From IMG/VR virus record IMGVR_UViG_3300027969_000041: DNA of 64,000 nt. One strand, written 5' to 3'. A program made the translations under genes and the position numbers. Position 1 is the first letter of the stretch, and every line of letters starts with the position of its first letter. Shown here piece after piece: positions 55,271 to 63,949 of the stretch. This DNA is from a virus (taxonomy: Duplodnaviria; Caudoviricetes). The notes beneath the pieces are model-generated. The model ran no database searches. It saw nothing but the letters and a program-made list of their open reading frames with translations, and was not told where the DNA came from.

Positions 55271-55656
55271 TAAGAAACCTCAGTTCTGCCGTTGCCTAAA
55301 TTGTTTACATTGATAAATCCGCTGCCTCTACGATCCATTTCGATTCCGTCGGCTGCCCCAACGTTGCGACATAGTTCGGAAAACCATTGATCTACAATTG
55401 CCTCATCCGATTCACCATTGTATCCGGATGCTCTTAATTGTAACACAAAGTATTCATTCCAGTCAAGCTCAAAAAATCCGTTGCGGATATTGTCTTTGTT
55501 TACATGAGTATCTAATACAGCTACCCAAGGCTCTTTATTAGCAGTTGCTTGTTCTTTGGGGGAAAGTCTTACAGGTTCTACTTTTTTAACAATTGGTTCT
55601 GGATCTTTAATGCCAAATAGTTTTTTAATAATTTGTTTCATTTTCAAGTACCCCAC
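55270..55656 (-). CDS. Hypothetical protein (128 aa)
   Basis: ORF between queE and rnh; start uncertain. Confidence 0.55.
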   Translation of the reverse strand: MGYLKMKQIIKKLFGIKDPEPIVKKVEPVRLSPKEQATANKEPWVAVLDTHVNKDNIRNGFFELDWNEYFVLQLRASGYNGESDEAIVDQWFSELCRNVGAADGIEMDRRGSGFINVNNLGNGRTEVS

Positions 55657-56501
55657 TCATTCTTAAACAACGGCACCTGCAATCGATCACTGTAGCGGAG
55701 ACCGTGTTTCATGGCCGCTAGTGCTACTGTTTTATTATTTAAAGCGTAAACACTCTCAATACCGCCCACTGGCATCAAATATACAAGACCTGTAAATCCT
55801 TCAGCACGGAATTCTTCTGTGGCCTTTAGTGCATCTTCAATATCTTGTTCTGTTGCTACCACAAATTTCAAATACACATATCCGTAATCTTGATAGTCAA
55901 CAACTACCTTAGGCTTAATTGCATCTTTCCACGGCTCGCCACTTGCCGGAAGTTTAGCACTAACGCTGAATGTAATTTCACGCATAAAATCTTTAGTGTG
56001 ATGGTGTGCCCAGGTATGTAAGTATTGTTTAAACTCTTTTGTTAAACGCATTGTGCCGTTTGTTTCAAAAGTAATTTCTTTTAATCCTTGCATACAAGGT
56101 TGCTCTAGCAAGTTCGGATACGCCTTTTGCCAACCTAGCAACGGCTCGCCACCTGTAATAACTAGATGCTCATCACGCCATGCACCAAAGGGCAATGTTT
56201 CTACAATGCTCTTAGCAAGACCATCTACGTTAATCATAGGACTTAGGTCCTTAAATGCAGGATGCCAGCTTGCATAACTATCACAACCTGTACTAACTAA
56301 CGGCAATGATTTGTATTCTGTAAATTCAACAGCACGTTCTGCAACCTTATCTGCTTCCGTGCTTAGTTCCCCACGGGGCATACCAAATCCTTGACAGGTA
56401 AAGTTACAACCAAATGTACGCAGAAACACAGAAGGGACACCCATAAAACGTCCTTCACCTTGGATGGAATAAAATAATTCTGATACTTTAATTTTGTTCA
56501 T
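55644..56501 (-). CDS. queE: 7-carboxy-7-deazaguanine synthase-like radical SAM enzyme
   Basis: ELFYSIQGEG...PSVFLRTFGCNFTC, GCDS, LVITGGEPL, FETNGT and RLQVPLF. Confidence 0.88.
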   Translation of the reverse strand: MNKIKVSELFYSIQGEGRFMGVPSVFLRTFGCNFTCQGFGMPRGELSTEADKVAERAVEFTEYKSLPLVSTGCDSYASWHPAFKDLSPMINVDGLAKSIVETLPFGAWRDEHLVITGGEPLLGWQKAYPNLLEQPCMQGLKEITFETNGTMRLTKEFKQYLHTWAHHHTKDFMREITFSVSAKLPASGEPWKDAIKPKVVVDYQDYGYVYLKFVVATEQDIEDALKATEEFRAEGFTGLVYLMPVGGIESVYALNNKTVALAAMKHGLRYSDRLQVPLFKNEWGT

Positions 56502-56766
56502 AAATGTTTGACCACTTTTTTAGTTTTTCAATTTTTGCTCTTTTAGCAATTTCTAAATGTTCTAATGATATTACACTCTTTTCTAGCATGATGTCAATCA
56601 TTGCAAGCATATCTCCAAGTTCTTCTTCCAAATGTTCTCTATTTGTTTTTGGCTTACCTGGTTTAAGATTATCAATTCCGAATCTACTAATCTTACTAAC
56701 TGCTTGGATAACTTCTGCACATTCTTCTTGCAGGATATCCATTACTTCTTTTAACTTATTATCCAT
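56488..56766 (-). CDS. mazG: MazG-like nucleotide pyrophosphohydrolase
   Basis: LQEECAEVIQAVSK and LEEELGDMLAMI motifs. Confidence 0.8.
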   Translation of the reverse strand: MDNKLKEVMDILQEECAEVIQAVSKISRFGIDNLKPGKPKTNREHLEEELGDMLAMIDIMLEKSVISLEHLEIAKRAKIEKLKKWSNIYEQN

Positions 56767-57220
56767 TTGTTTTTCTATTTTCTAAATATTTGTCGTTGTG
56801 AATCCATTTGTTGTCGACAAGGAATCCCCATTCACGCCTTTGTGGACCAGGCATGAACATTGTCCAGCAGTCTGTTCCTTCTTTAAGCTCAACACGGTGA
56901 TAGCTATTAGCAGGGCAAATACGGAAGTGCCCAGGACCACGCCAATGCCGTGTTTCACTGATCTTGGCACCTTGTGAATTAAAGTTAGGAGTCCATTCAT
57001 AATAACCGCCTTTTAAAATTAGAGTAGCGTAAGGCCATGGATGATCATGCACATCATCGGGGTCTGACTTAAGAAACTTGTGTAAAAAAACATTAAAGGG
57101 AAACTGCTTTCTGTCTTTAAGAAACAAATAATATCGTTCAAGATAAGGTTCATTATCTTGTCTATCCATTACAATGCGTTTGCGACCAAGCCGGTCAAGT
57201 ATATTTACAAACCATTTCAT
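56759..57220 (-). CDS. Cupin-fold protein
   Basis: LHKF..SD...HDHPW...ILKGGYYE and YHRVEL...WTMF metal-binding cupin pattern. Confidence 0.75.
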   Translation of the reverse strand: MKWFVNILDRLGRKRIVMDRQDNEPYLERYYLFLKDRKQFPFNVFLHKFLKSDPDDVHDHPWPYATLILKGGYYEWTPNFNSQGAKISETRHWRGPGHFRICPANSYHRVELKEGTDCWTMFMPGPQRREWGFLVDNKWIHNDKYLENRKTNG

Positions 57221-58317
57221 TTAATCATCTCCAATAACTTGTTTGCACTAAAGAAGTTTTCAGTTAGATCTCTTGTTTGTTTGCGAACTTGATATTTGAA
57301 CTGATCATAATTATTCATATATTGAATAATTTTATAACACAATGCTTGTCGAGATGACTCGTATGCTTTGTAGTTTTCGGTCCAAATACTAGGATACTTA
57401 AATGTGTCGTAGTACATTTCGCTATAAGATAAACGATCCGGTACCATCGGAATAGCATCTACAATGGCACCTTCGTAACAACTAATACCCAGAGTTTCTT
57501 GTAGATTTGCACTAAACACAATTTTACTTTCGCCTAACAAATTATGATATTCATTTTTTGTTAATTGTTGATCCTGACAAACTACAAATTCATATTGCGG
57601 CAAATGTGTAGCTAGGTCACGGAAAATTTCAACCTGTTTCTCTGGCGCTATGCGATGAGGAAACAGTATAAGATCACGTTTGGGCATATTCTTATACATA
57701 GTCAATGTATTGTCCATATACTCCATAGGCCAACCTGTTCGAACAAATCTTAGATCTTCACCTTTTAAGATTTCATCTAGATGTTCACTAAACCAAGGAT
57801 TTTCTGTAGGATAATCGTTTAACAGATTAGTATAGAACATACTAATATGAAAGTCTGTAGCAAAGTAGTTATAATCAAATGCATGGAAGAAACTCTTCTC
57901 AGCGTTTCTCACCCAAGGCTTATTGCCAACCAACCTACCTAGAAAGTCTTGAGGATCATAACTACCAGCATGCCATAAGCCGTGTGTGGTTACTGGGATG
58001 CCCAGTAACTCACTCATATATTTAAGATTGATGATGCCAGGGTGCCAAGCATCAGTAAATATAAAATGATCACCTGCATGAACGGTTCCGTCGCAAAATA
58101 GCCTACCCATCTGCTCAACCTGCCGAGCCTTGTAGATGTTTGTGCCGCCAAAATTAAGAAAGGCACCAGGAGTAGTAGCACTAGGGATATCTGTAGGGCC
58201 AGAGATAATTTGAACATTGTGTCCTGCTTTCTTAAGTAGATTAGGTACATGAGACTTCCATTGTCCCGTGTACCTAGTTTCTACGCTTTCCAAATCAATT
58301 AGGAAAACGTTTGCCAT
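57217..58317 (-). CDS. GT-B fold glycosyltransferase (GT4-like)
   Basis: Start set at MANVFL (58317). LWHAGSYDP, LFPHRIAPEKQ and ETLGISCYEG..VDAIPMVPDRLSYSE match the GT-B nucleotide-sugar-binding motif. Confidence 0.8.
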   Translation of the reverse strand: MANVFLIDLESVETRYTGQWKSHVPNLLKKAGHNVQIISGPTDIPSATTPGAFLNFGGTNIYKARQVEQMGRLFCDGTVHAGDHFIFTDAWHPGIINLKYMSELLGIPVTTHGLWHAGSYDPQDFLGRLVGNKPWVRNAEKSFFHAFDYNYFATDFHISMFYTNLLNDYPTENPWFSEHLDEILKGEDLRFVRTGWPMEYMDNTLTMYKNMPKRDLILFPHRIAPEKQVEIFRDLATHLPQYEFVVCQDQQLTKNEYHNLLGESKIVFSANLQETLGISCYEGAIVDAIPMVPDRLSYSEMYYDTFKYPSIWTENYKAYESSRQALCYKIIQYMNNYDQFKYQVRKQTRDLTENFFSANKLLEMIK

Positions 58318-58318
58318 T

Positions 58319-58543
58319 TTATTGTTCCTGACGCTGTGCTCGTCCTTCGCGACGGGCTTTTCGTTCAAGATACTCTTGACCACGCTGGAATGCTCGGTAA
58401 GCATCGGACCTATAAAGATCCTTTTCGTTGTATGGAAGAAGATTAAATCGGCAATGATCTAACCATGTGTCGAGGTCGTCAAAAATACGAGTGACCTCTG
58501 GTTTCATCTTAAGAGTTTTTTGAATGTAAGTTGGCTGTGCCAT
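58319..58543 (-). CDS. Hypothetical protein (74 aa)
   Basis: ORF between the T-fold gene and the glycosyltransferase. Confidence 0.55.
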   Translation of the reverse strand: MAQPTYIQKTLKMKPEVTRIFDDLDTWLDHCRFNLLPYNEKDLYRSDAYRAFQRGQEYLERKARREGRAQRQEQ

Positions 58544-58560
58544 TTTACGTTTTCCTATTA

Positions 58561-58944
58561 TTAGGGTTGATTAACAAATGTAAGTGTAGCGCCATTCTCG
58601 CCATCCTCACTTACTTCAATAATGGTCTTACGACCAGGCCACCTTGCAGTGATTGTCGTGTTAAGTTCACGAGCAATCATTTCACAAGATTTGTGGTTGA
58701 GTTCAAGAATGCCATCGCTGTAGCACTTCTCAAGCCAACGCTTAAACTGGATAAATTCAATATCGCGGTCATCTTGGAAGACCTCAATAGAAACTTTAAA
58801 ATGGAAAATATGTCGATGCGGTGTTCCAAGAAAACTAACATCATATTCGTCGCCTGTAGCTAACTTAGGATCAGTTGCCGCGGCAGGGTACATGTGAATA
58901 CCTTCTTTACGGAAGGTTACCCAAATAAATGATAGATTGTTCAT
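58561..58944 (-). CDS. QueD-like T-fold protein (DpdL-like)
   Basis: HMYP...LGTPHRHIFHFKVSIEV...DRDIEFIQFKR, SCEMIA and EVSEDGENG; His-rich T-fold pattern inside a deazaguanine cluster. Confidence 0.7.
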   Translation of the reverse strand: MNNLSFIWVTFRKEGIHMYPAAATDPKLATGDEYDVSFLGTPHRHIFHFKVSIEVFQDDRDIEFIQFKRWLEKCYSDGILELNHKSCEMIARELNTTITARWPGRKTIIEVSEDGENGATLTFVNQP

Positions 58945-59132
58945 TACTCTGCGGTTTTCTTAGTAGTTTTCTTAGCGGATGTTGAAGATGCATTTTCTGT
59001 TTTTTCAGGAGCCGCTTCCTTCATCATGTTCATCATTTCCCAAAGTTTCCAATCTATGCTTTCAAGCAATTTGAATAGTTTTTCTTCAGTTGAATGTTGA
59101 GCAATGGATTTTGTAAGTTTAGCATTAATCAT
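58944..59132 (-). CDS. Hypothetical protein (62 aa)
   Basis: Stop/start overlaps on both sides. Confidence 0.5.
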   Translation of the reverse strand: MINAKLTKSIAQHSTEEKLFKLLESIDWKLWEMMNMMKEAAPEKTENASSTSAKKTTKKTAE

Positions 59133-59641
59133 TTAATTACCTCGTCGTTTTTATATTGGTTCCAGTCTGTAAAGTTTTTACGATCCATTAGTGTGTGCAG
59201 ACTGTGTGACCACACACCGGGATTAGTTGCATTAAAATCTTTGTCGTCAATTTTAATCATTGTATTATAATTCCATAATTTAATATATGGAATAGGAACT
59301 CGAATTTGTGGAATAAAATTATTACTTTCACATAATCCATTTTCGAGAAATTCTTCTGCAAGAGCAATTGGAATATCAAGACTACACAGATATCCTTTTT
59401 CTAAAAAGAATTCAATCATAGATTCCCAACTTTTCCACTCGTTGTAGGTAGTGGGAAGGAAACTGTGATTAGCACCAAAAAAGATATGTTCTGCTCCGTT
59501 TAAGTTGGCAGAAATTTCTTCTATTGTATGTATGCCTGTGACAAATAGTGTCTTTAATCCAAACGCAGGTGTGTGTTCAATTTCAGTTCCTGTAAAGAAT
59601 TGAATATTGTTTGCTTCACCGTTGATATAATCTCGTTTCAT
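59129..59641 (-). CDS. Hypothetical enzyme-like protein (about 170 aa) in the modification cluster
   Basis: Start set at MKRDY (59641); FTGTEIEHTP...HIFFGANHSF segment. Confidence 0.55.
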   Translation of the reverse strand: MKRDYINGEANNIQFFTGTEIEHTPAFGLKTLFVTGIHTIEEISANLNGAEHIFFGANHSFLPTTYNEWKSWESMIEFFLEKGYLCSLDIPIALAEEFLENGLCESNNFIPQIRVPIPYIKLWNYNTMIKIDDKDFNATNPGVWSHSLHTLMDRKNFTDWNQYKNDEVIK

Positions 59642-59680
59642 AATATTAGTATAGCGTAATTTGTGCCAACATGCAACCAA

Positions 59681-60166
59681 TTAATTGCCCGGAAACGGCC
59701 AAGCGTTGCTGGGTTCTGGGCGAGATTTTAATTTAATATCTTCTTCAATGATCAACCCATCCTCGTCACAAAGACTAACTTGAAATGGTGCAATGATATG
59801 TACTGCGGCATCTTCTTCTTGCCAATCATGTTCACCATCGTACAGCCAACCTGCACCACCTTCGTAGTAAAGCTCTTTTAATTCTTGTTGTTCTAGTCCA
59901 CTAATGTCATCGCTAAATTCCCATTCAACACTAATGCTATCATCGAACTCACAGCCCCAACCCGCATCCACTTTAGTGTATGCCACTCGATCGCCGTCAT
60001 AAGGAAGGTTACAATCCATATCTTCTTCAATAAACCCTTGCCCCCAACGATAGGTTTCATCTATGTTAAACCAACTTGTAGTACCGTCTGGATTATCACG
60101 GAACATTTCTACATGGTAGATAACACTTTTCTTTTCAAGAGGTTTGATTAGGTATACTTTACTCAT
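59681..60166 (-). CDS. Acidic hypothetical protein (161 aa)
   Basis: Very Asp/Glu- and Trp-rich ORF with ATGA coupling. Confidence 0.6.
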   Translation of the reverse strand: MSKVYLIKPLEKKSVIYHVEMFRDNPDGTTSWFNIDETYRWGQGFIEEDMDCNLPYDGDRVAYTKVDAGWGCEFDDSISVEWEFSDDISGLEQQELKELYYEGGAGWLYDGEHDWQEEDAAVHIIAPFQVSLCDEDGLIIEEDIKLKSRPEPSNAWPFPGN

Positions 60167-60567
60167 TTTGATTTCTCTGCTAGTTCTTTATAACCCGCCC
60201 AACTAGGATGTATCTTATCTTTTTGCCAACGAGTTGTAACTAAAACAGTATCACCGAATTGTTCTGCGACTCGACGAATGTGCTGTACTGCTTCAAATTT
60301 TTCTTCTCGATTTGGTTCAATCCAAAATACTCTTGGGTTGCCTTTAATTTTAGTACGGATATTCATTAACATTCCGTAGGTATCTGCCTTTGCCCAGTCA
60401 TTGGTTCCTAAACTAATAATAACTGTATTAGCAGTTAGATCATTTTTTCCGTATTGTTTATTCCAGCCAATACTAGTAATGCCACCTTTGGCATAATCAA
60501 TACAATCAGGACGAAACATTTTTGTTCCGACGGCAATACTGTCACCTATAATTAAACAATCAATCAT
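60163..60567 (-). CDS. SGNH/GDSL-like hydrolase
   Basis: IIGDSIAVG, ISLGTND and D.IHP blocks. Confidence 0.8.
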   Translation of the reverse strand: MIDCLIIGDSIAVGTKMFRPDCIDYAKGGITSIGWNKQYGKNDLTANTVIISLGTNDWAKADTYGMLMNIRTKIKGNPRVFWIEPNREEKFEAVQHIRRVAEQFGDTVLVTTRWQKDKIHPSWAGYKELAEKSK

Positions 60568-60986
60568 TCTAAATCCTCATTGCGATTGCTAGGGTACTTA
60601 CTACTGGCCATCCTAATTAGTACTAGGCTAACAGCAAGTATGAAAGTTGCCCCTGCTAATATCAGTATGTTTGTTATATGTTCGTCGCCGATTGCTACTA
60701 GATCTATCATATGTCGAGTTAGTGCGGTAATAGCAATGTAAATTAAAAAACGCACCGGCATATGGTTAGTTTTGAAATATATCCCAACCATTGCACCAAT
60801 TTCCAAGTAGATGAATAGTAATAGTAAATCTTGAATATTGACATGATGTTTTTGAAATAATTCAAAAAATGTATAGCCAGCCGCCCATACTGTGGCAGCA
60901 CCTATACTAAACAGAGCAATTCTATGGAATATACCAACTAGGGTATTTCCGAAATTGTCTAATTTTTGTAGTTGATTATTCAGCAC
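60564..60986 (-). CDS. psiE: Phosphate-starvation-inducible membrane protein PsiE-like
   Basis: Four hydrophobic segments; DLLLLFIYLEIGAMVGIYF...MPVRFLIYIAITALTRH signature. Confidence 0.8.
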   Translation of the reverse strand: MLNNQLQKLDNFGNTLVGIFHRIALFSIGAATVWAAGYTFFELFQKHHVNIQDLLLLFIYLEIGAMVGIYFKTNHMPVRFLIYIAITALTRHMIDLVAIGDEHITNILILAGATFILAVSLVLIRMASSKYPSNRNEDLE

Positions 60987-61000
60987 GATATTCTCCAGGT

Positions 61001-61582
61001 TTACTTTACTGCTATATTAAATGATATAGAAATCCTGTCTTCATCATTTAAGTTTGGTTCTACATAATGTTCTAGCCATGCAGGAAATAGTAATAATTGT
61101 CCCTCTTTAGGAGTAACAGTCCAATTGGCCGAACTAACTGCGTTATAATTATCTACAAATTGATCTTGTAAATGATATTGCAAATTGGATGCAGGATTCT
61201 TAAATAGAATGTTTCCTTTTTTATCTCCAACTGATACATAATAAGCACCTGACATAACACAATCGGTGTGTATGTGAGGTCTATTAAATCCAGACTTGGG
61301 ATTAATGTTTATCCACAAATGATTTATAAATGTTCTGGTAGAAGATTTTAATCCGCATTCAGTTTTAATAGATTCTGCTCGAGAAAGTATTTCGTTGACT
61401 AATTTTTGTATTTCTGGATTAGGCTTAATTAACGCCCCACTTTGCCAACCGTAAAAATTACTACGCACAACTCCTGGAGACGATTTTTTTACATCATATG
61501 CATACTTCTTTAATTCAGCATTGTCTATACTTGTTAGTGTATCTGAAACAACAAATGATGAAAATACATAAGACAAATTCAT
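61001..61582 (-). CDS. 2OG-Fe(II) oxygenase (TIGR02466-like)
   Basis: WININ...PHIH..VMSGAYY, FPAWLEHYV and RISISFN motifs. Confidence 0.85.
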   Translation of the reverse strand: MNLSYVFSSFVVSDTLTSIDNAELKKYAYDVKKSSPGVVRSNFYGWQSGALIKPNPEIQKLVNEILSRAESIKTECGLKSSTRTFINHLWININPKSGFNRPHIHTDCVMSGAYYVSVGDKKGNILFKNPASNLQYHLQDQFVDNYNAVSSANWTVTPKEGQLLLFPAWLEHYVEPNLNDEDRISISFNIAVK

Positions 61583-61583
61583 G

Positions 61584-63218
61584 TTATTCTCCTAATCCAC
61601 CTTCTTCAAGTTCTCGAAGTTTATCATCATCTGGATTTTCTAAATCTACTTCTTCAGAAGTCGTTACTTCTTCAAATGCAAATAAATTTCTAAATTCATT
61701 TTGCTTAGGACCGCCCTGTAGTCGAGCACCTTCTAAACTGCGTAAGAATGGACCTGCTTGATCTATCATAGCAAATGCTTCGTCTTTAGTAGTAGTATTA
61801 AACAAGTCTTCAACTAAACTTGAGAAGTATAATATGTTACGGGGAACCCAGTCGCTATGCTCATCACTCATGTCCGAGCCTTTGACCTTCTTCCACTGTT
61901 TCCATGTCAGCCGATCTTTAACTTTGGCAATTTCGATATCCATTAGTTGTTGAGCACGTTGTACTGCAACAATATGACATTCTACATTATGACCCATCAT
62001 CAATGCATAAGCAAAACTATCCCAACTTGTTTTGTTTGGAATTTTACCTAGCTTGTTTAGTCTAGGAACTTCATGATAGTGTTCTGGATTTAAGTGATCA
62101 AATTTGACACCATTTAATTCTTTATCTGTTTTCCGATTGCCTAGATTATAATAGGCAATGTCTGTCATTGTCAATCTACGGCCGATTGACGATTCGAAGG
62201 GAAACGGAATGTCTGACCCCGATAATGATTTGTTATCTGGTGCTTTGTCCATAATAACACTCCACCTCTTGGGAGTGTGGACTGCGCTGGTGTAGACAAG
62301 TCCGTGCGCTGTTGCGATGAACGGTGAGGCGCAGTCAAAAGATATGGTAATTTCTTCATTGATATGTTTCCTGATTTGTCGTTGAATTAAAGTTAAGTAG
62401 CATGACCAATCCAGCTGAGCAGTTCCCAGAAAGTGGATCCAATTTTTGCCTTTCAGCAAACCATCTTCTCTTAATGTCATTAGACGTTTAAGAGTAATAT
62501 CCATTTTGCACATGTTAGCACCACCAAAGGCCCAACCTTCTGCTTCACGACCCGCATACTTACCTTTAGGGTCGCTAAATTCTTTTACACCTTGATACCA
62601 CTGTTCAGCAGTATCCCAGTCCCCACCTTGTAACACATTGAGCCATTTAGTTTGACCTAACCGATTCATTAGAAAGTAATCATTGTTATAACGAGTCTTA
62701 TCTAAACAATCTTCAAATGTTTTCAATCCTGTCTTAGGACTATGAATATGGTCACATGCCCATGTGGGCACGTCTAGCATCATTGACCAGTCTGCGGTTA
62801 CTTCTAACCACTCGAGAATCTTTTGACGAGTCTTTGTAGCTTCCTTGCCCTCAAAGTCTAACCAATCAAACTTAAGAACACCTTTACCAATCTGGTATCC
62901 ACCCGAGTCACCGAGAATCATAGTGTTATTACGATCTCGTTGTTGAATCATTGATTCTTGTGTTAGACTCTTTTGTAGATCTAACTGTGCATGACCTGCT
63001 GAATACAATCCGTACTTGTAAGTAAAATATCCTTGTTCTGGATTAAGGAAATTCATACCTTCAATACCTCGATCAAATCCTGCAGGGATACGATCCTTAG
63101 ATACAAACTCTTCTAGGCGTTGTTTAGCAACGTAAGTACTGTAGAAACTACTAATAGCTGGCAAATAGACAGCATAGTCTTTCTGTAATGGTGTTAGGTT
63201 AACTTGTTGATGTATCAT
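61584..63218 (-). CDS. dpdA: TGT-family transglycosylase, DpdA-like (7-deazaguanine insertion into DNA)
   Basis: TGT barrel motifs GDSGGYQ, MLDVP, NVLQG, GWAFGG, IHFLG and SFDCASP; clustered with queE and the QueD-like gene. The DNA (rather than tRNA) substrate is inferred from context. Confidence 0.75.
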   Translation of the reverse strand: MIHQQVNLTPLQKDYAVYLPAISSFYSTYVAKQRLEEFVSKDRIPAGFDRGIEGMNFLNPEQGYFTYKYGLYSAGHAQLDLQKSLTQESMIQQRDRNNTMILGDSGGYQIGKGVLKFDWLDFEGKEATKTRQKILEWLEVTADWSMMLDVPTWACDHIHSPKTGLKTFEDCLDKTRYNNDYFLMNRLGQTKWLNVLQGGDWDTAEQWYQGVKEFSDPKGKYAGREAEGWAFGGANMCKMDITLKRLMTLREDGLLKGKNWIHFLGTAQLDWSCYLTLIQRQIRKHINEEITISFDCASPFIATAHGLVYTSAVHTPKRWSVIMDKAPDNKSLSGSDIPFPFESSIGRRLTMTDIAYYNLGNRKTDKELNGVKFDHLNPEHYHEVPRLNKLGKIPNKTSWDSFAYALMMGHNVECHIVAVQRAQQLMDIEIAKVKDRLTWKQWKKVKGSDMSDEHSDWVPRNILYFSSLVEDLFNTTTKDEAFAMIDQAGPFLRSLEGARLQGGPKQNEFRNLFAFEEVTTSEEVDLENPDDDKLRELEEGGLGE

Positions 63219-63949
63219 GCCTGTGCTGGAATAATATATTTGTAAGTAGCAAGACCGCTGTCTAATTCAATTTGCATAGCACCGTCATTGCTAAAACCAA
63301 TTTTAGCATTGTTAGCATCTGCAATCTTCAAGATGCTCAGCACTGGCATAACAGGCCATGTCCATGCTTTAGTAATCTTACCTGTTACACCTGTGGCAAA
63401 TACAAACTCACCACCGTGACTTGCGGCATCGCCAAATGTAAAGATCAATTTGTCGCCATCTGTCTTAGCTAAGAATGTTGTGTGCTCTGTGTTAGCACCT
63501 GCTTGGAATTGGAAACGCTGTACAGAAGCAACTGTAGGCGCAACTTCAACATGCCAATTAACACCACGAAACTTGACAGTCTTCAATTTCTCATTGATGA
63601 TGTCTTGATTCATAAATCGATAGTCATTCTTAAAGTCGCCGTCTTTGTTTTCAAAGTGAAGACCGACTGGAATAGTTTCCCCGTTGCGATCACCTGTAAC
63701 AACTTCAATCTTAGCATCTTCTTGATACTCTTTACCATCAACTAGATATCGTAGTTTTTCAAGTTGTGGCATACCAAATGTACCGATCATATCGGGATGT
63801 GGATTGGTAGTCTCTGCATACATGATAACACTACGGTCATCTGCCATAGAGTCGATCAATGTTTTAGCTTCTGTGCCTGTAATTTTTACAATGTTTAAGA
63901 AGCCTAGTTTGTTGGTGTGAGCAACGATGTCTTGTAGAATGTCTTTCAT
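63215..63949 (-). CDS. gp45: DNA polymerase sliding clamp, gp45-like
   Basis: 244 aa, beta-rich two-domain pattern (FGMPQL, NDYRFM, LATYKYIIPA) typical of divergent gp45. Confidence 0.65.
   Translation of the reverse strand: MKDILQDIVAHTNKLGFLNIVKITGTEAKTLIDSMADDRSVIMYAETTNPHPDMIGTFGMPQLEKLRYLVDGKEYQEDAKIEVVTGDRNGETIPVGLHFENKDGDFKNDYRFMNQDIINEKLKTVKFRGVNWHVEVAPTVASVQRFQFQAGANTEHTTFLAKTDGDKLIFTFGDAASHGGEFVFATGVTGKITKAWTWPVMPVLSILKIADANNAKIGFSNDGAMQIELDSGLATYKYIIPAQA

What the first reader, a model, noticed from the sequence alone, without database searches (positions are those of the whole stretch)
55644..63218. 7-deazaguanine DNA-modification cluster with glycosyltransferase, cupin and oxygenase: candidate new hypermodified base
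A TGT/DpdA-like transglycosylase, QueE and a QueD-like T-fold protein lie in one minus-strand run behind the sliding clamp. The T-fold protein has LGTPHRHIF; as I recall, LxxxHRHxF marks the predicted CDG decarboxylase DpdL, which needs verifying. Established pathway: FolE, QueD and QueE make CDG, and DpdA swaps deazaguanine bases into DNA as anti-restriction marks. No FolE, canonical QueD, QueC, QueF or Gat-QueC is visible in this window. Instead, a GT-B glycosyltransferase, a cupin and MazG form a tightly overlapping block between the T-fold gene and queE, and a 2OG-Fe(II) oxygenase directly follows dpdA. Inference: a deazaguanine is inserted, then hydroxylated and/or glycosylated, giving a sugar-bearing 7-deazaguanine not among the derivatives I know (dPreQ0, dPreQ1, dG+, dADG, dCDG, dDG, mdPreQ1, fdPreQ1).
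Basis: partly seen in the sequence, partly recalled or inferred. Interest (0 to 1): 0.8.

Follow-up and report, generated by a model that had tools for sequence, protein, structure and literature searches.

The report
Deazaguanine DNA-modification cluster with conserved glycosyltransferase
A freshwater jumbo phage carries the genes that swap guanine in its DNA for 7-deazaguanine, and a sugar-adding enzyme always travels with them, so the final base may carry a sugar, which has not been seen on a purine in DNA.

Summary
The minus-strand run 55644-63218 encodes:
- a TGT-fold DpdA-like transglycosylase (544 aa);
- a DpdL-type T-fold protein with LGTPHRHIF;
- a GT4/GT-B glycosyltransferase with an intact EX7E motif;
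- a cupin, a small MazG and a QueE-like radical-SAM enzyme;
- a 2OG-Fe(II) oxygenase just after dpdA.

The phage belongs to a very abundant freshwater metagenomic clade distantly related to Pseudomonas phage PA5oct.

- **Glycosyltransferase:** it is the real signal. Every isolate phage record with a full-length homolog also has DpdL within about 3 kb, and so do two distant metagenomic family members.
- **Core set:** DpdA, a 170-aa unknown, DpdL, the GT and QueE are present in 42 of 42 related loci.
- **2OG oxygenase, PsiE and GDSL genes:** present in 0 of 42, so they are a strain-specific insert.
- **Cupin:** a generic phage accessory gene, absent from the PA5oct locus and the compact ACP17 module.
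- **FolE and QueD:** encoded elsewhere in relatives; QueF is absent, and a canonical QueC is absent or, in two relatives, represented only by a short QueC-family protein.

Best reading (about 0.5): CDG is decarboxylated to 7-deazaguanine, DpdA inserts it, and the GT adds a sugar without prior hydroxylation. The product is unverified.

The scan had already noted this same stretch in another reading of this genome, not on other DNA.

The parts
63215..63949 (-). Putative sliding clamp (244 aa), immediately upstream of dpdA
   Evidence: phrog_12062, function unknown. 34% identical to a Phosso protein annotated 'DNA polymerase III sliding clamp beta' and 35% to PA5oct gp170. Fold not tested.
61584..63218 (-). 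DpdA-like DNA (7-deaza)guanine transglycosylase, 544 aa, divergent clade. The C-terminal disordered tail carries an FxxLF motif shared with the DNA polymerase C-terminus.
   Evidence: TGT fold. D104 in DSGG, H262-L-G and D295 are invariant. hhalign 95.9% to the X1/ACP17/BCSR5 DpdA-like group. The Vibrio phage homolog sits beside queF, queC, Gat and folE. Motif.
61001..61582 (-). 2OG-Fe(II) oxygenase (TIGR02466/PF13759), part of a strain-specific insert, probably not in the pathway
   Evidence: Absent from 42/42 related loci. Present on the identical JGI contig L109.
60163..60986 (-). PsiE-family membrane protein (60564-60986) and weak GDSL-like hydrolase (60163-60567): the same strain-specific insert
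   Evidence: 0/42 relatives.
59681..60166 (-). Unknown 161-aa protein; variable presence and position
   Evidence: 11/42 relatives, at differing positions. No family hits.
59129..59641 (-). Conserved unknown 170-aa protein (u170), candidate core pathway component
   Evidence: 42/42 relatives. Among isolate phages, found only in PA5oct-likes (42% identity) and ACP17, where it lies between folE and dpdA. No Pfam, PDB or Atlas match.
58944..59132 (-). Small 62-aa ORF
   Evidence: 22/42 relatives; function unknown.
58561..58944 (-). DpdL-type T-fold protein (predicted CDG decarboxylase), 127 aa
   Evidence: LGTPHRHIF motif. Homologous to ACP17 and phiST DpdL. Alignment against canonical QueD shows the catalytic Cys replaced by Leu and H17, E88 and E113 kept. 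Motif definition: PMC10516641.
58319..58543 (-). Small conserved 74-aa ORF between dpdL and the GT
   Evidence: Called as a gene on L109. 54-61% identical in G001 and G003.
57217..58317 (-). GT4-like GT-B glycosyltransferase (366 aa from M30), predicted retaining NDP-sugar transferase
   Evidence: AF2 pLDDT 95.3. Foldseek and VIA-align match BshA, sucrose-phosphate synthase, glycogen synthase, MshA and LmbT, with Z up to 26. 35/60 homologs hit PF00534. E274-x7-E282, R222 and K227 are conserved. Homologs are 365-366 aa.
56759..57220 (-). Cupin ('cysteine dioxygenase'-like), accessory
   Evidence: phrog_4786, E 1e-40. HDHPW...YHRV visible in sequence. 37/42 in the clade. Widespread in unrelated phages.
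56488..56766 (-). Small MazG-like NTP pyrophosphohydrolase (92 aa)
   Evidence: PF03819, 28.8 bits. phrog_4856. 37/42 relatives. The phiST cluster also carries a MazG next to dpdL.
55644..56501 (-). QueE-like radical-SAM enzyme (CDG synthase)
   Evidence: phrog_2076, E 1e-50. Weak sub-threshold matches to five QueE NCBIfam models. 31% identical to annotated QueE of X1 and Vibrio phage 2.275.O.

Best explanation
This is a DpdL-type 7-deazaguanine DNA-modification module of a freshwater jumbo phage.

Shown by homology or fold:
- A TGT-fold DpdA-like base-exchange enzyme.
- A QueE-like CDG synthase.
- A DpdL-family T-fold protein.
- A catalytically intact-looking GT4 glycosyltransferase.
- A MazG.
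- In relatives, FolE and QueD are encoded elsewhere in the genome.

Inferred pathway:
1. GTP is converted to H2NTP by FolE.
2. H2NTP is converted to CPH4 by QueD.
3. CPH4 is converted to 7-carboxy-7-deazaguanine (CDG) by QueE.
4. CDG is decarboxylated to 7-deazaguanine by DpdL.
5. DpdA exchanges G in phage DNA for that base after replication. It is possibly held on the sliding clamp through an FxxLF tail.
6. The GT4 enzyme transfers a sugar from a host NDP-sugar onto the deazaguanine. This could happen on the free base before insertion or on dDG in DNA. No prior hydroxylation is needed, so an N- or C-linked glycoside is implied. The N2-glycosylation of free 7-deazapurines in huimycin biosynthesis is the nearest chemical precedent.

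The conserved 170-aa protein is probably a further pathway component. MazG may trim competing nucleotides. The cupin is an optional clade-specific accessory. The 2OG oxygenase, PsiE and GDSL genes are unrelated cargo.
For: - DpdA: TGT fold and conserved catalytic motifs.
- DpdL: homology and signature motif.
- GT: fold plus EX7E, R and K residues.
- All 17 isolate phage records with a full-length GT homolog also carry DpdL.
- The two genes are adjacent or within about 3 kb in PA5oct, ACP17, Phosso, X1 and BCSR5.
- Two GT family members at 28-31% identity are again directly beside DpdL.
- DpdA, u170, DpdL, GT and QueE are each present in 42/42 clade loci.
- FolE and QueD are present in 5/5 long relatives and QueF is absent.
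- No QueC in PA5oct, ACP17, BCSR5, Phosso or phiST.
- PA5oct DNA resists G-site restriction enzymes and is targeted by nucleases specific for hypermodified or modified-G DNA. Its base is chemically unidentified (PMC12191111).
- A GT carrying the Pfam Glyco_transf_4 domain (HuiG) glycosylates a free 7-deazapurine base with UDP-GlcNAc.
Against: - No chemical data exist for any GT-bearing phage.
- DpdL decarboxylase activity has never been demonstrated.
- 7-Deazaguanine has no hydroxyl, and N- or C-glycosylation of it in DNA is unprecedented.
- Phages with close DpdL homologs (RHph_I1_18, 60% identity) lack the GT, and phiST makes plain dDG without it. The GT is therefore dispensable for the core pathway.
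- Structural neighbours of the GT do not reveal its acceptor.
- Two close relatives carry a short QueC-family protein elsewhere, so the base could differ from DG.
- FolE and QueD could not be verified in this genome itself.
Confidence: 0.5

Rival explanations
1. The DNA carries plain 2'-deoxy-7-deazaguanine (dDG), as in Cellulophaga phage phiST. The glycosyltransferase is linked by position only and glycosylates something else, such as another DNA base, a protein, a host envelope component or a small molecule.
For: phiST has DpdL and MazG but no GT homolog, and shows complete G-to-dDG replacement. GT4 enzymes have very diverse acceptors. DG offers no hydroxyl acceptor.
Against: GT-DpdL adjacency persists across at least seven lineages down to 28% GT identity, often with overlapping stop and start codons. 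This is hard to explain without shared chemistry. No full-length GT homolog was found in a phage lacking DpdL.
Confidence: 0.25
2. Inserted deazaguanine is first hydroxylated by the 2OG-Fe(II) oxygenase and/or the cupin, and the GT then O-glycosylates it.
For: Both oxygenase-type genes are in the run. The cupin overlaps the GT stop codon and is kept in 37/42 clade loci. An O-glycoside is chemically the most ordinary GT product.
Against: The 2OG oxygenase is absent from 42/42 related loci. The cupin family gave no match in the PA5oct locus, and the compact ACP17 module u170-DpdA-GT-DpdL-QueE has no gene for it. It is common in phages without deazaguanine genes.
Confidence: 0.12
3. DpdL is not a decarboxylase. 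DpdL and the GT together make a different product, for example a glycosylated CDG derivative or a pterin glycoside. DpdA inserts that product, or it is not destined for DNA at all and the TGT homolog acts on tRNA.
For: DpdL activity is unproven. FolE plus a PTPS-like T-fold protein plus a GT-B glycosyltransferase resembles pteridine-glycoside synthesis; the tetrahydrobiopterin glucosyltransferase 5zer is a structural neighbour at Z 20.9. The pathway resemblance is my own knowledge.
Against: QueE and DpdA are in the same conserved module. The DpdA gene sits with the clamp and polymerase genes. PA5oct DNA itself is G-modified. DpdL lacks the catalytic Cys of PTPS/QueD.
Confidence: 0.1

Closest known systems
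DpdL/DpdA3 system of Cellulophaga phage phiST (dDG; Hutinet et al. 2023, PMC10516641)
   Same: FolE, QueD, QueE, a DpdL with LxxxHRHxF, a MazG next to dpdL, a TGT-superfamily DpdA, and no QueC or QueF.
   Different: phiST has no GT homolog. Its DpdA3 is 259 aa and only marginally related by profile comparison (hhalign 41.8%). DpdL identity is 34%.
Acidovorax phage ACP17 gp122-gp126 and Pseudomonas phage PA5oct gp168-gp162
   Same: The same module of DpdA-like, GT4, DpdL and QueE, plus the 170-aa protein. PA5oct DpdA is 43% identical, the GT 42% and DpdL 56%.
   Different: No cupin, MazG or 2OG oxygenase match was found in the PA5oct locus, and the annotated ACP17 module has no such genes. The ACP17 DpdA-like protein is 424 aa and belongs to a different subgroup. 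Neither phage has a chemically identified base; PA5oct has only restriction and END-nuclease evidence.
T4-type post-replicative DNA glucosylation (alpha/beta-glucosyltransferases on 5-hmC)
   Same: A GT-B enzyme decorates a non-canonical base of a phage genome as an optional add-on to a core modification pathway. T4 alpha-GT is a structural neighbour at Z 18.7.
   Different: The acceptor in T4 is a hydroxymethyl pyrimidine. Here it would be a purine analogue without a hydroxyl. The GT here is GT4-like and closer to BshA and sucrose-phosphate synthase than to the T4 enzymes.
Huimycin/dapiramicin biosynthesis (HuiG glycosylation of a free 7-deazapurine base)
   Same: A GT carrying the Pfam Glyco_transf_4 domain (PF13439) uses an NDP-sugar to glycosylate a FolE/QueD/QueE-derived 7-deazapurine.
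   Different: That is an actinomycete secondary metabolite made from preQ0, with no DpdA and no DNA target. Sequence relatedness of HuiG to this GT was not tested. The N2 attachment site is from my own recollection.

Membership tests
TGT/DpdA transglycosylase superfamily | TGT-type TIM-barrel fold | tested here: met
   AF2 model pLDDT 80.9. The 50 best PDB matches shown are all Z. mobilis TGT entries, E 1.5e-7 to 1e-6, prob 1.00.
TGT/DpdA transglycosylase superfamily | Catalytic Asp in the DSGG(F/Y)Q motif and a second conserved Asp | tested here: met
   D104 (GDSGGYQ) and D295 (SFDCAS) are invariant in 40 diverse homologs and align to the same motifs in the X1/ACP17/BCSR5 proteins. Equivalence to TGT D102/D280 is inferred, not superposed.
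TGT/DpdA transglycosylase superfamily | Match to the curated Pfam models TGT (PF01702) or DpdA (PF23859) | tested here: not met
   No hit for the window protein or its relatives. Only BCSR5 gives a 12-13 bit TGT match. The published DpdA3 and DpdA4 were likewise identified by HHpred profile comparison.
TGT/DpdA transglycosylase superfamily | Acts on DNA rather than tRNA | not testable with these tools
   Indirect only: the gene sits between the clamp/polymerase genes and the deazaguanine genes, and the related phage PA5oct has G-modified DNA.
DpdA3 subfamily | Clear profile similarity to phiST CGPG_00065 | tested here: inconclusive
   hhalign probability 41.8%, E 2.7e-4, over 94 columns. Other subfamilies (bDpdA, DpdA1, DpdA2, DpdA4) were not compared.
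DpdL (predicted CDG decarboxylase) | LxxxHRHxF in place of QueD's CxxxHGH | tested here: met
   LGTPHRHIF. L39, H43, R44, H45 and F47 are invariant in 12 family members. Definition from PMC10516641.
DpdL (predicted CDG decarboxylase) | Sequence homology to the named DpdL proteins | tested here: met
   58% identity to ACP17 (E 9e-38) and 34% to phiST (E 7e-8). The shared His and two Glu residues (H17, E88, E113) are invariant across DpdL and QueD rows.
DpdL (predicted CDG decarboxylase) | Genome encodes FolE, QueD, QueE and DpdA but not QueC | tested here: inconclusive
   Met in PA5oct, ACP17, Phosso, BCSR5 and relatives G001 and G002. Relatives G003 and G004 have a short QueC-family protein. 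The window's own genome is not held.
DpdL (predicted CDG decarboxylase) | CDG decarboxylase activity | not testable with these tools
   Also unproven in the literature.
GT-B / GT4 retaining glycosyltransferases | Two-Rossmann-domain GT-B fold | tested here: met
   pLDDT 95.3. VIA-align Z 26.2 to sucrose-phosphate synthase and 25.3 to BshA. Foldseek E 1e-10.
GT-B / GT4 retaining glycosyltransferases | EX7E motif and basic residues for the NDP-sugar | tested here: met
   E274 (nearly invariant) and E282 (invariant) are eight residues apart. R222 and K227 are nearly invariant in 60 homologs. The role assignment is inferred from family knowledge.
GT-B / GT4 retaining glycosyltransferases | Pfam Glycos_transf_1 match | tested here: inconclusive
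   The window protein gives no hit, but 35 of 60 homologs do (best E 5.5e-9). The family profile hits glycosyltransferase 8xsg at E 3e-5.
QueE (CDG synthase) | Match to QueE models and a radical-SAM cluster motif | tested here: inconclusive
   phrog_2076 E 1e-50 over the full length. All NCBIfam QueE models match far below their cut-offs (53 bits against 300), and Pfam Radical_SAM is below cut-off. Only CNFTC is obvious near the N-terminus.
2OG-Fe(II) oxygenase as a pathway member | Conserved co-occurrence with the cluster | tested here: not met
   The family assignment is solid (PF13759, 88.9 bits), but the gene is in 0/42 related loci.

The most novel reading that the evidence does not exclude
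A GT4 enzyme N- or C-glycosylates 7-deazaguanine. A divergent DpdA, possibly tethered to the sliding clamp, places the base in DNA. The result would be the first sugar-bearing purine analogue in any genome. It would be present in a very abundant clade of freshwater jumbo phages and in cultivable phages such as PA5oct and ACP17, and it would explain PA5oct's unidentified G modification.
Probability: 0.42. Interest if true: 0.85.

Novelty: new variant of a known kind. Interest (0 to 1): 0.7.

Why it matters
Eight 7-deazaguanine derivatives are known in viral DNA, and none carries a sugar. This work identifies a glycosyltransferase that co-evolves with DpdL and DpdA across unrelated phage lineages. 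It gives a concrete candidate for the 'unknown enzyme' that blocked reconstitution of the DpdL pathway in E. coli. It also gives a candidate for the chemically unidentified modified G of the therapeutic jumbo phage PA5oct.

The question is directly testable by mass spectrometry on phages already in culture. A glycosylated purine in DNA would widen the known chemistry of genomes. It would bear on restriction, END-nuclease and glycosylase defences, and it would affect how such phage DNA behaves in sequencing. The DpdA clade itself escapes the curated TGT and DpdA models, so these systems are under-counted in surveys.

Tried and rejected
- **Own genome:** not held, so folE, queD and queC could not be searched in this genome. 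Only 10 kb of extra flank was reachable through an identical contig.
- **Curated models on the DpdA-like, GT, DpdL, cupin and u170 proteins:** Pfam and NCBIfam gave no hit for any of them. PHROGs gave none for the DpdA-like protein, the GT or u170.
- **PDB sequence and profile searches:** nothing useful for DpdA, the cupin or u170.
- **The search for related loci:** the PA5oct and Vibrio phage DpdA queries found nothing in IMG/VR.
- **u170 against the Phosso 'glycosylase' in the same position:** no relationship. The Atlas gave no usable hit.
- **Complex prediction of GT with DpdL:** no verdict, score 0.00. This is neither support for nor evidence against binding.
- **Structural neighbours of the GT:** they do not separate DNA, small-molecule and glycan acceptors.
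- **Sequencing runs:** those holding the locus are kept only as contigs. No read-level signal of modification could be examined.
- **Promoter and terminator scan:** not above chance overall.
- **Literature searches:** no report of a glycosylated deazaguanine in DNA or of the GT-DpdL link.

Full report
**What is there**

Window 51.7-64 kb is one compact minus-strand run of replication and nucleotide-metabolism genes. Curated libraries recognised only part of the flagged stretch:
- 2OG-Fe(II) oxygenase (61001-61582): PF13759, 88.9 bits, and TIGR02466.
- PsiE (60564-60986).
- A weak GDSL-like protein.
- MazG (56488-56766): PF03819, 28.8 bits.
- A cupin (56759-57220): phrog_4786, E 1e-40.
- A QueE-like radical-SAM enzyme (55644-56501): phrog_2076, E 1e-50.

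The three genes that matter most gave no hit in Pfam or NCBIfam. These are the 544-aa putative DpdA, the 127-aa T-fold protein and the 395-aa putative glycosyltransferase. They needed profile and structure methods.

**DpdA**

- The 544-aa protein contains GDSGGYQ.
- Among isolate phages its relatives are the PA5oct group (43% identity), Sinorhizobium phage Phosso and Vibrio phage 2.275.O.
- In the Vibrio phage the homolog sits two genes upstream of queF, a YhhQ-like transporter, queC, a Gat domain and folE.
- A seven-member family alignment matches the roughly 430-aa proteins of phages X1, ACP17 and BCSR5 with hhalign probability 95.9%. X1's protein is annotated queuine tRNA-ribosyltransferase. 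The match aligns the DSGGxQ, HxLG and SxD motifs.
- An AF2 model built on 40 diverse homologs has pLDDT 80.9. Its 50 best PDB matches are all tRNA-guanine transglycosylase (E about 1e-7, prob 1.00).
- D104, H262, L264, G265 and D295 are invariant.

The protein is therefore a TGT-superfamily enzyme. The Pfam TGT and DpdA models miss the whole group. Its profile similarity to phiST DpdA3 is marginal (41.8%), so I treat it as a divergent DpdA clade. I did not compare it with bDpdA, DpdA1, DpdA2 or DpdA4.

**DpdL**

Hutinet et al. 2023 state that QueD's CxxxHGH becomes LxxxHRHxF in DpdL, the proposed but unproven CDG decarboxylase (PMC10516641).
- The window protein reads LGTPHRHIF.
- It is 58% identical to the ACP17 protein that the paper names DpdL, and 34% identical to phiST DpdL.
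- An alignment with canonical QueDs shows Cys replaced by Leu, with one His and two Glu kept in all rows.

**Glycosyltransferase**

- Homologs are 365-366 aa and begin at the window protein's M30.
- The exhaustive representative search found 713 clusters at E of 1e-10 or better.
- 35 of 60 chosen homologs hit Pfam Glycos_transf_1.
- The AF2 model (pLDDT 95.3) is a GT-B fold. It is closest to GT4-type retaining enzymes: BshA, sucrose-phosphate synthase, glycogen synthase, MshA, PglA and LmbT, with Z up to 26.
- E274-x7-E282, R222 and K227 are conserved, so the enzyme looks catalytically competent.
- The structural neighbours include enzymes for small molecules, glycans, a pterin (5zer, Z 20.9) and DNA (T4 alpha-GT, Z 18.7). 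They do not reveal the acceptor.

**Which genes belong together**

The phage is a member of a very abundant freshwater clade.
- More than 589 IMG/VR stretches encode a relative of its DpdA. The 80 loci kept are all 81% identical or more, on contigs up to 331 kb.
- Runs holding the locus are freshwater and lake metagenomes.

In the 42 related loci that hold both dpdA and queE:

| Gene | Present |
|---|---|
| DpdA, 170-aa unknown (u170), DpdL, GT, QueE | 42/42 each |
| Cupin, MazG | 37/42 each |
| 2OG oxygenase, PsiE, GDSL | 0/42 each |

The 2OG oxygenase, PsiE and GDSL insert recurs only on a JGI contig that carries the identical DpdA.

The cupin family occurs in 102 phage records. Among the listed and tallied ones, most are mycobacteriophages, Gordonia phages and Burkholderia phages not known for deazaguanine modification. 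It gave no match in the PA5oct locus, and the compact ACP17 module has no gene for it.

The GT shows the opposite pattern.
- All 17 isolate records with a full-length homolog also have DpdL.
- The two genes are close in five lineages: ACP17 (gp122 u170, gp123 DpdA, gp124 GT, gp125 DpdL, gp126 QueE), PA5oct (gp168 DpdA, gp167 GT, gp166 DpdL), Phosso, X1 and BCSR5.
- I looked up two GT family members at only 28-31% identity without knowing their context. Both lie directly against DpdL homologs, and one also has a DpdA-like gene nearby.
- Some DpdL phages lack the GT: phiST and its kin, RHph_I1_18 and several others.

This is the distribution expected of an optional tailoring enzyme added to a core pathway.

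**Missing upstream genes**

- The window has no FolE or QueD by tblastn, and its genome is not held.
- All four long relatives and PA5oct encode FolE and a canonical QueD.
- In relatives, folE usually lies between the GT and the cupin. In the window these two genes overlap, so folE has moved.
- Unchecked notes from other windows of this genome place queD about 42 kb and folE about 53 kb beyond the window end. This fits the relatives' layout.
- QueF is absent from all five genomes searched.
- QueC is absent from PA5oct, ACP17, BCSR5, Phosso and phiST. Two close relatives carry a short QueC-family protein about 90 kb from the cluster (PF06508, 44.7 bits). This is a caveat.

**Mechanism**

Shown:
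- the enzyme families and folds;
- the conserved gene set.

Inferred:
- the pathway FolE, QueD, QueE to CDG;
- DpdL decarboxylates CDG to 7-deazaguanine;
- DpdA exchanges the base into DNA;
- the GT adds a sugar.

The conserved GT-bearing modules contain no oxygenase, so the acceptor atom must be on the deazaguanine itself. That implies an N- or C-glycoside. A GT carrying the Pfam Glyco_transf_4 domain glycosylates a free 7-deazapurine base in huimycin biosynthesis, so the chemistry has a precedent at the free-base level.

Outside support comes from two papers:
- PA5oct DNA resists restriction at G-containing sites, and nucleases specific for hypermodified or modified-G DNA attack the phage. 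The base has not been identified (PMC12191111).
- ACP17 dpdL plus dpdA, expressed without the GT, produced no dDG in E. coli.

None of this shows a sugar on the base. I put the glycosylated-deazaguanine reading at about 0.5.

**Novelty**

The DpdL-type pathway is known. The following are not described in the papers I could search:
- the conserved GT4 partner;
- the 170-aa partner;
- this DpdA clade;
- the predicted glycosylated product.

I rate the finding a new variant of a known kind, with the product unverified.

Noticed in passing
window 61584-61700 (DpdA C-terminal tail); L109:7700-7762 (DNA polymerase C-terminus): The DNA polymerase ends in ...TFGSLFSFE*. DpdA has ...EFRNLFAFEE in a low-confidence tail (residues 499-530). 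PA5oct shows the same pairing (HFDSLFGW* against SFNSLFDVD). A shared FxxLF clamp-binding-like motif would tether DpdA to the clamp encoded just upstream. Another note of this scan had already raised the idea.
   Followed up: partly
L005:12583-12936: A relative whose DpdA is 93% identical to the window's carries a swapped, divergent DpdL allele. It is 36% identical and 117 aa long, and still has LxxxHRHxF. This suggests module exchange within the cluster.
   Followed up: no
L095:1168-1797 and L096 (relatives G004 and G003): A short 210-aa QueC-family PP-loop protein lies about 90 kb from the deazaguanine cluster in two of four long relatives. It has SGGLDS and a C-terminal Cys cluster, and scores 44.7 bits on PF06508. 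No homolog is present in the window's 64 kb.
   Followed up: partly
window 57217-57220 versus L027:14070-16060: In most relatives folE, sometimes with other genes, lies between the GT and the cupin. In the window the GT and cupin overlap by 4 nt, so folE has been lost from this site or moved elsewhere in the genome.
   Followed up: partly
window 62145-62174 (minus strand): A perfect sigma-70 consensus (TTGACA, 18 nt, TATAAT; 12/12) lies inside the dpdA coding sequence, reading in the gene's direction. The overall count of promoter-like sites is not above chance.
   Followed up: no
L110:4669-7903 (Xanthomonas phage PhiXhv-12): A more distant GT of this superfamily (27% identity, partial) sits with a GlmS-like aminotransferase and a BshB/LmbE-like deacetylase, not with deazaguanine genes. 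This is a different phage glycosylation module.
   Followed up: no
L102:6402-7226 (Rhizobium phage RHph_I1_18): In a DpdL phage that lacks the GT, the gene directly after dpdL encodes a macro-domain (Appr-1-p processing) protein.
   Followed up: no
L001:3605-8831 (PA5oct): The PA5oct DNA polymerase gene upstream of the cluster is split by a Hef-like homing endonuclease gene. In the window's clade the polymerase is a single 905-aa gene (L109).
   Followed up: no
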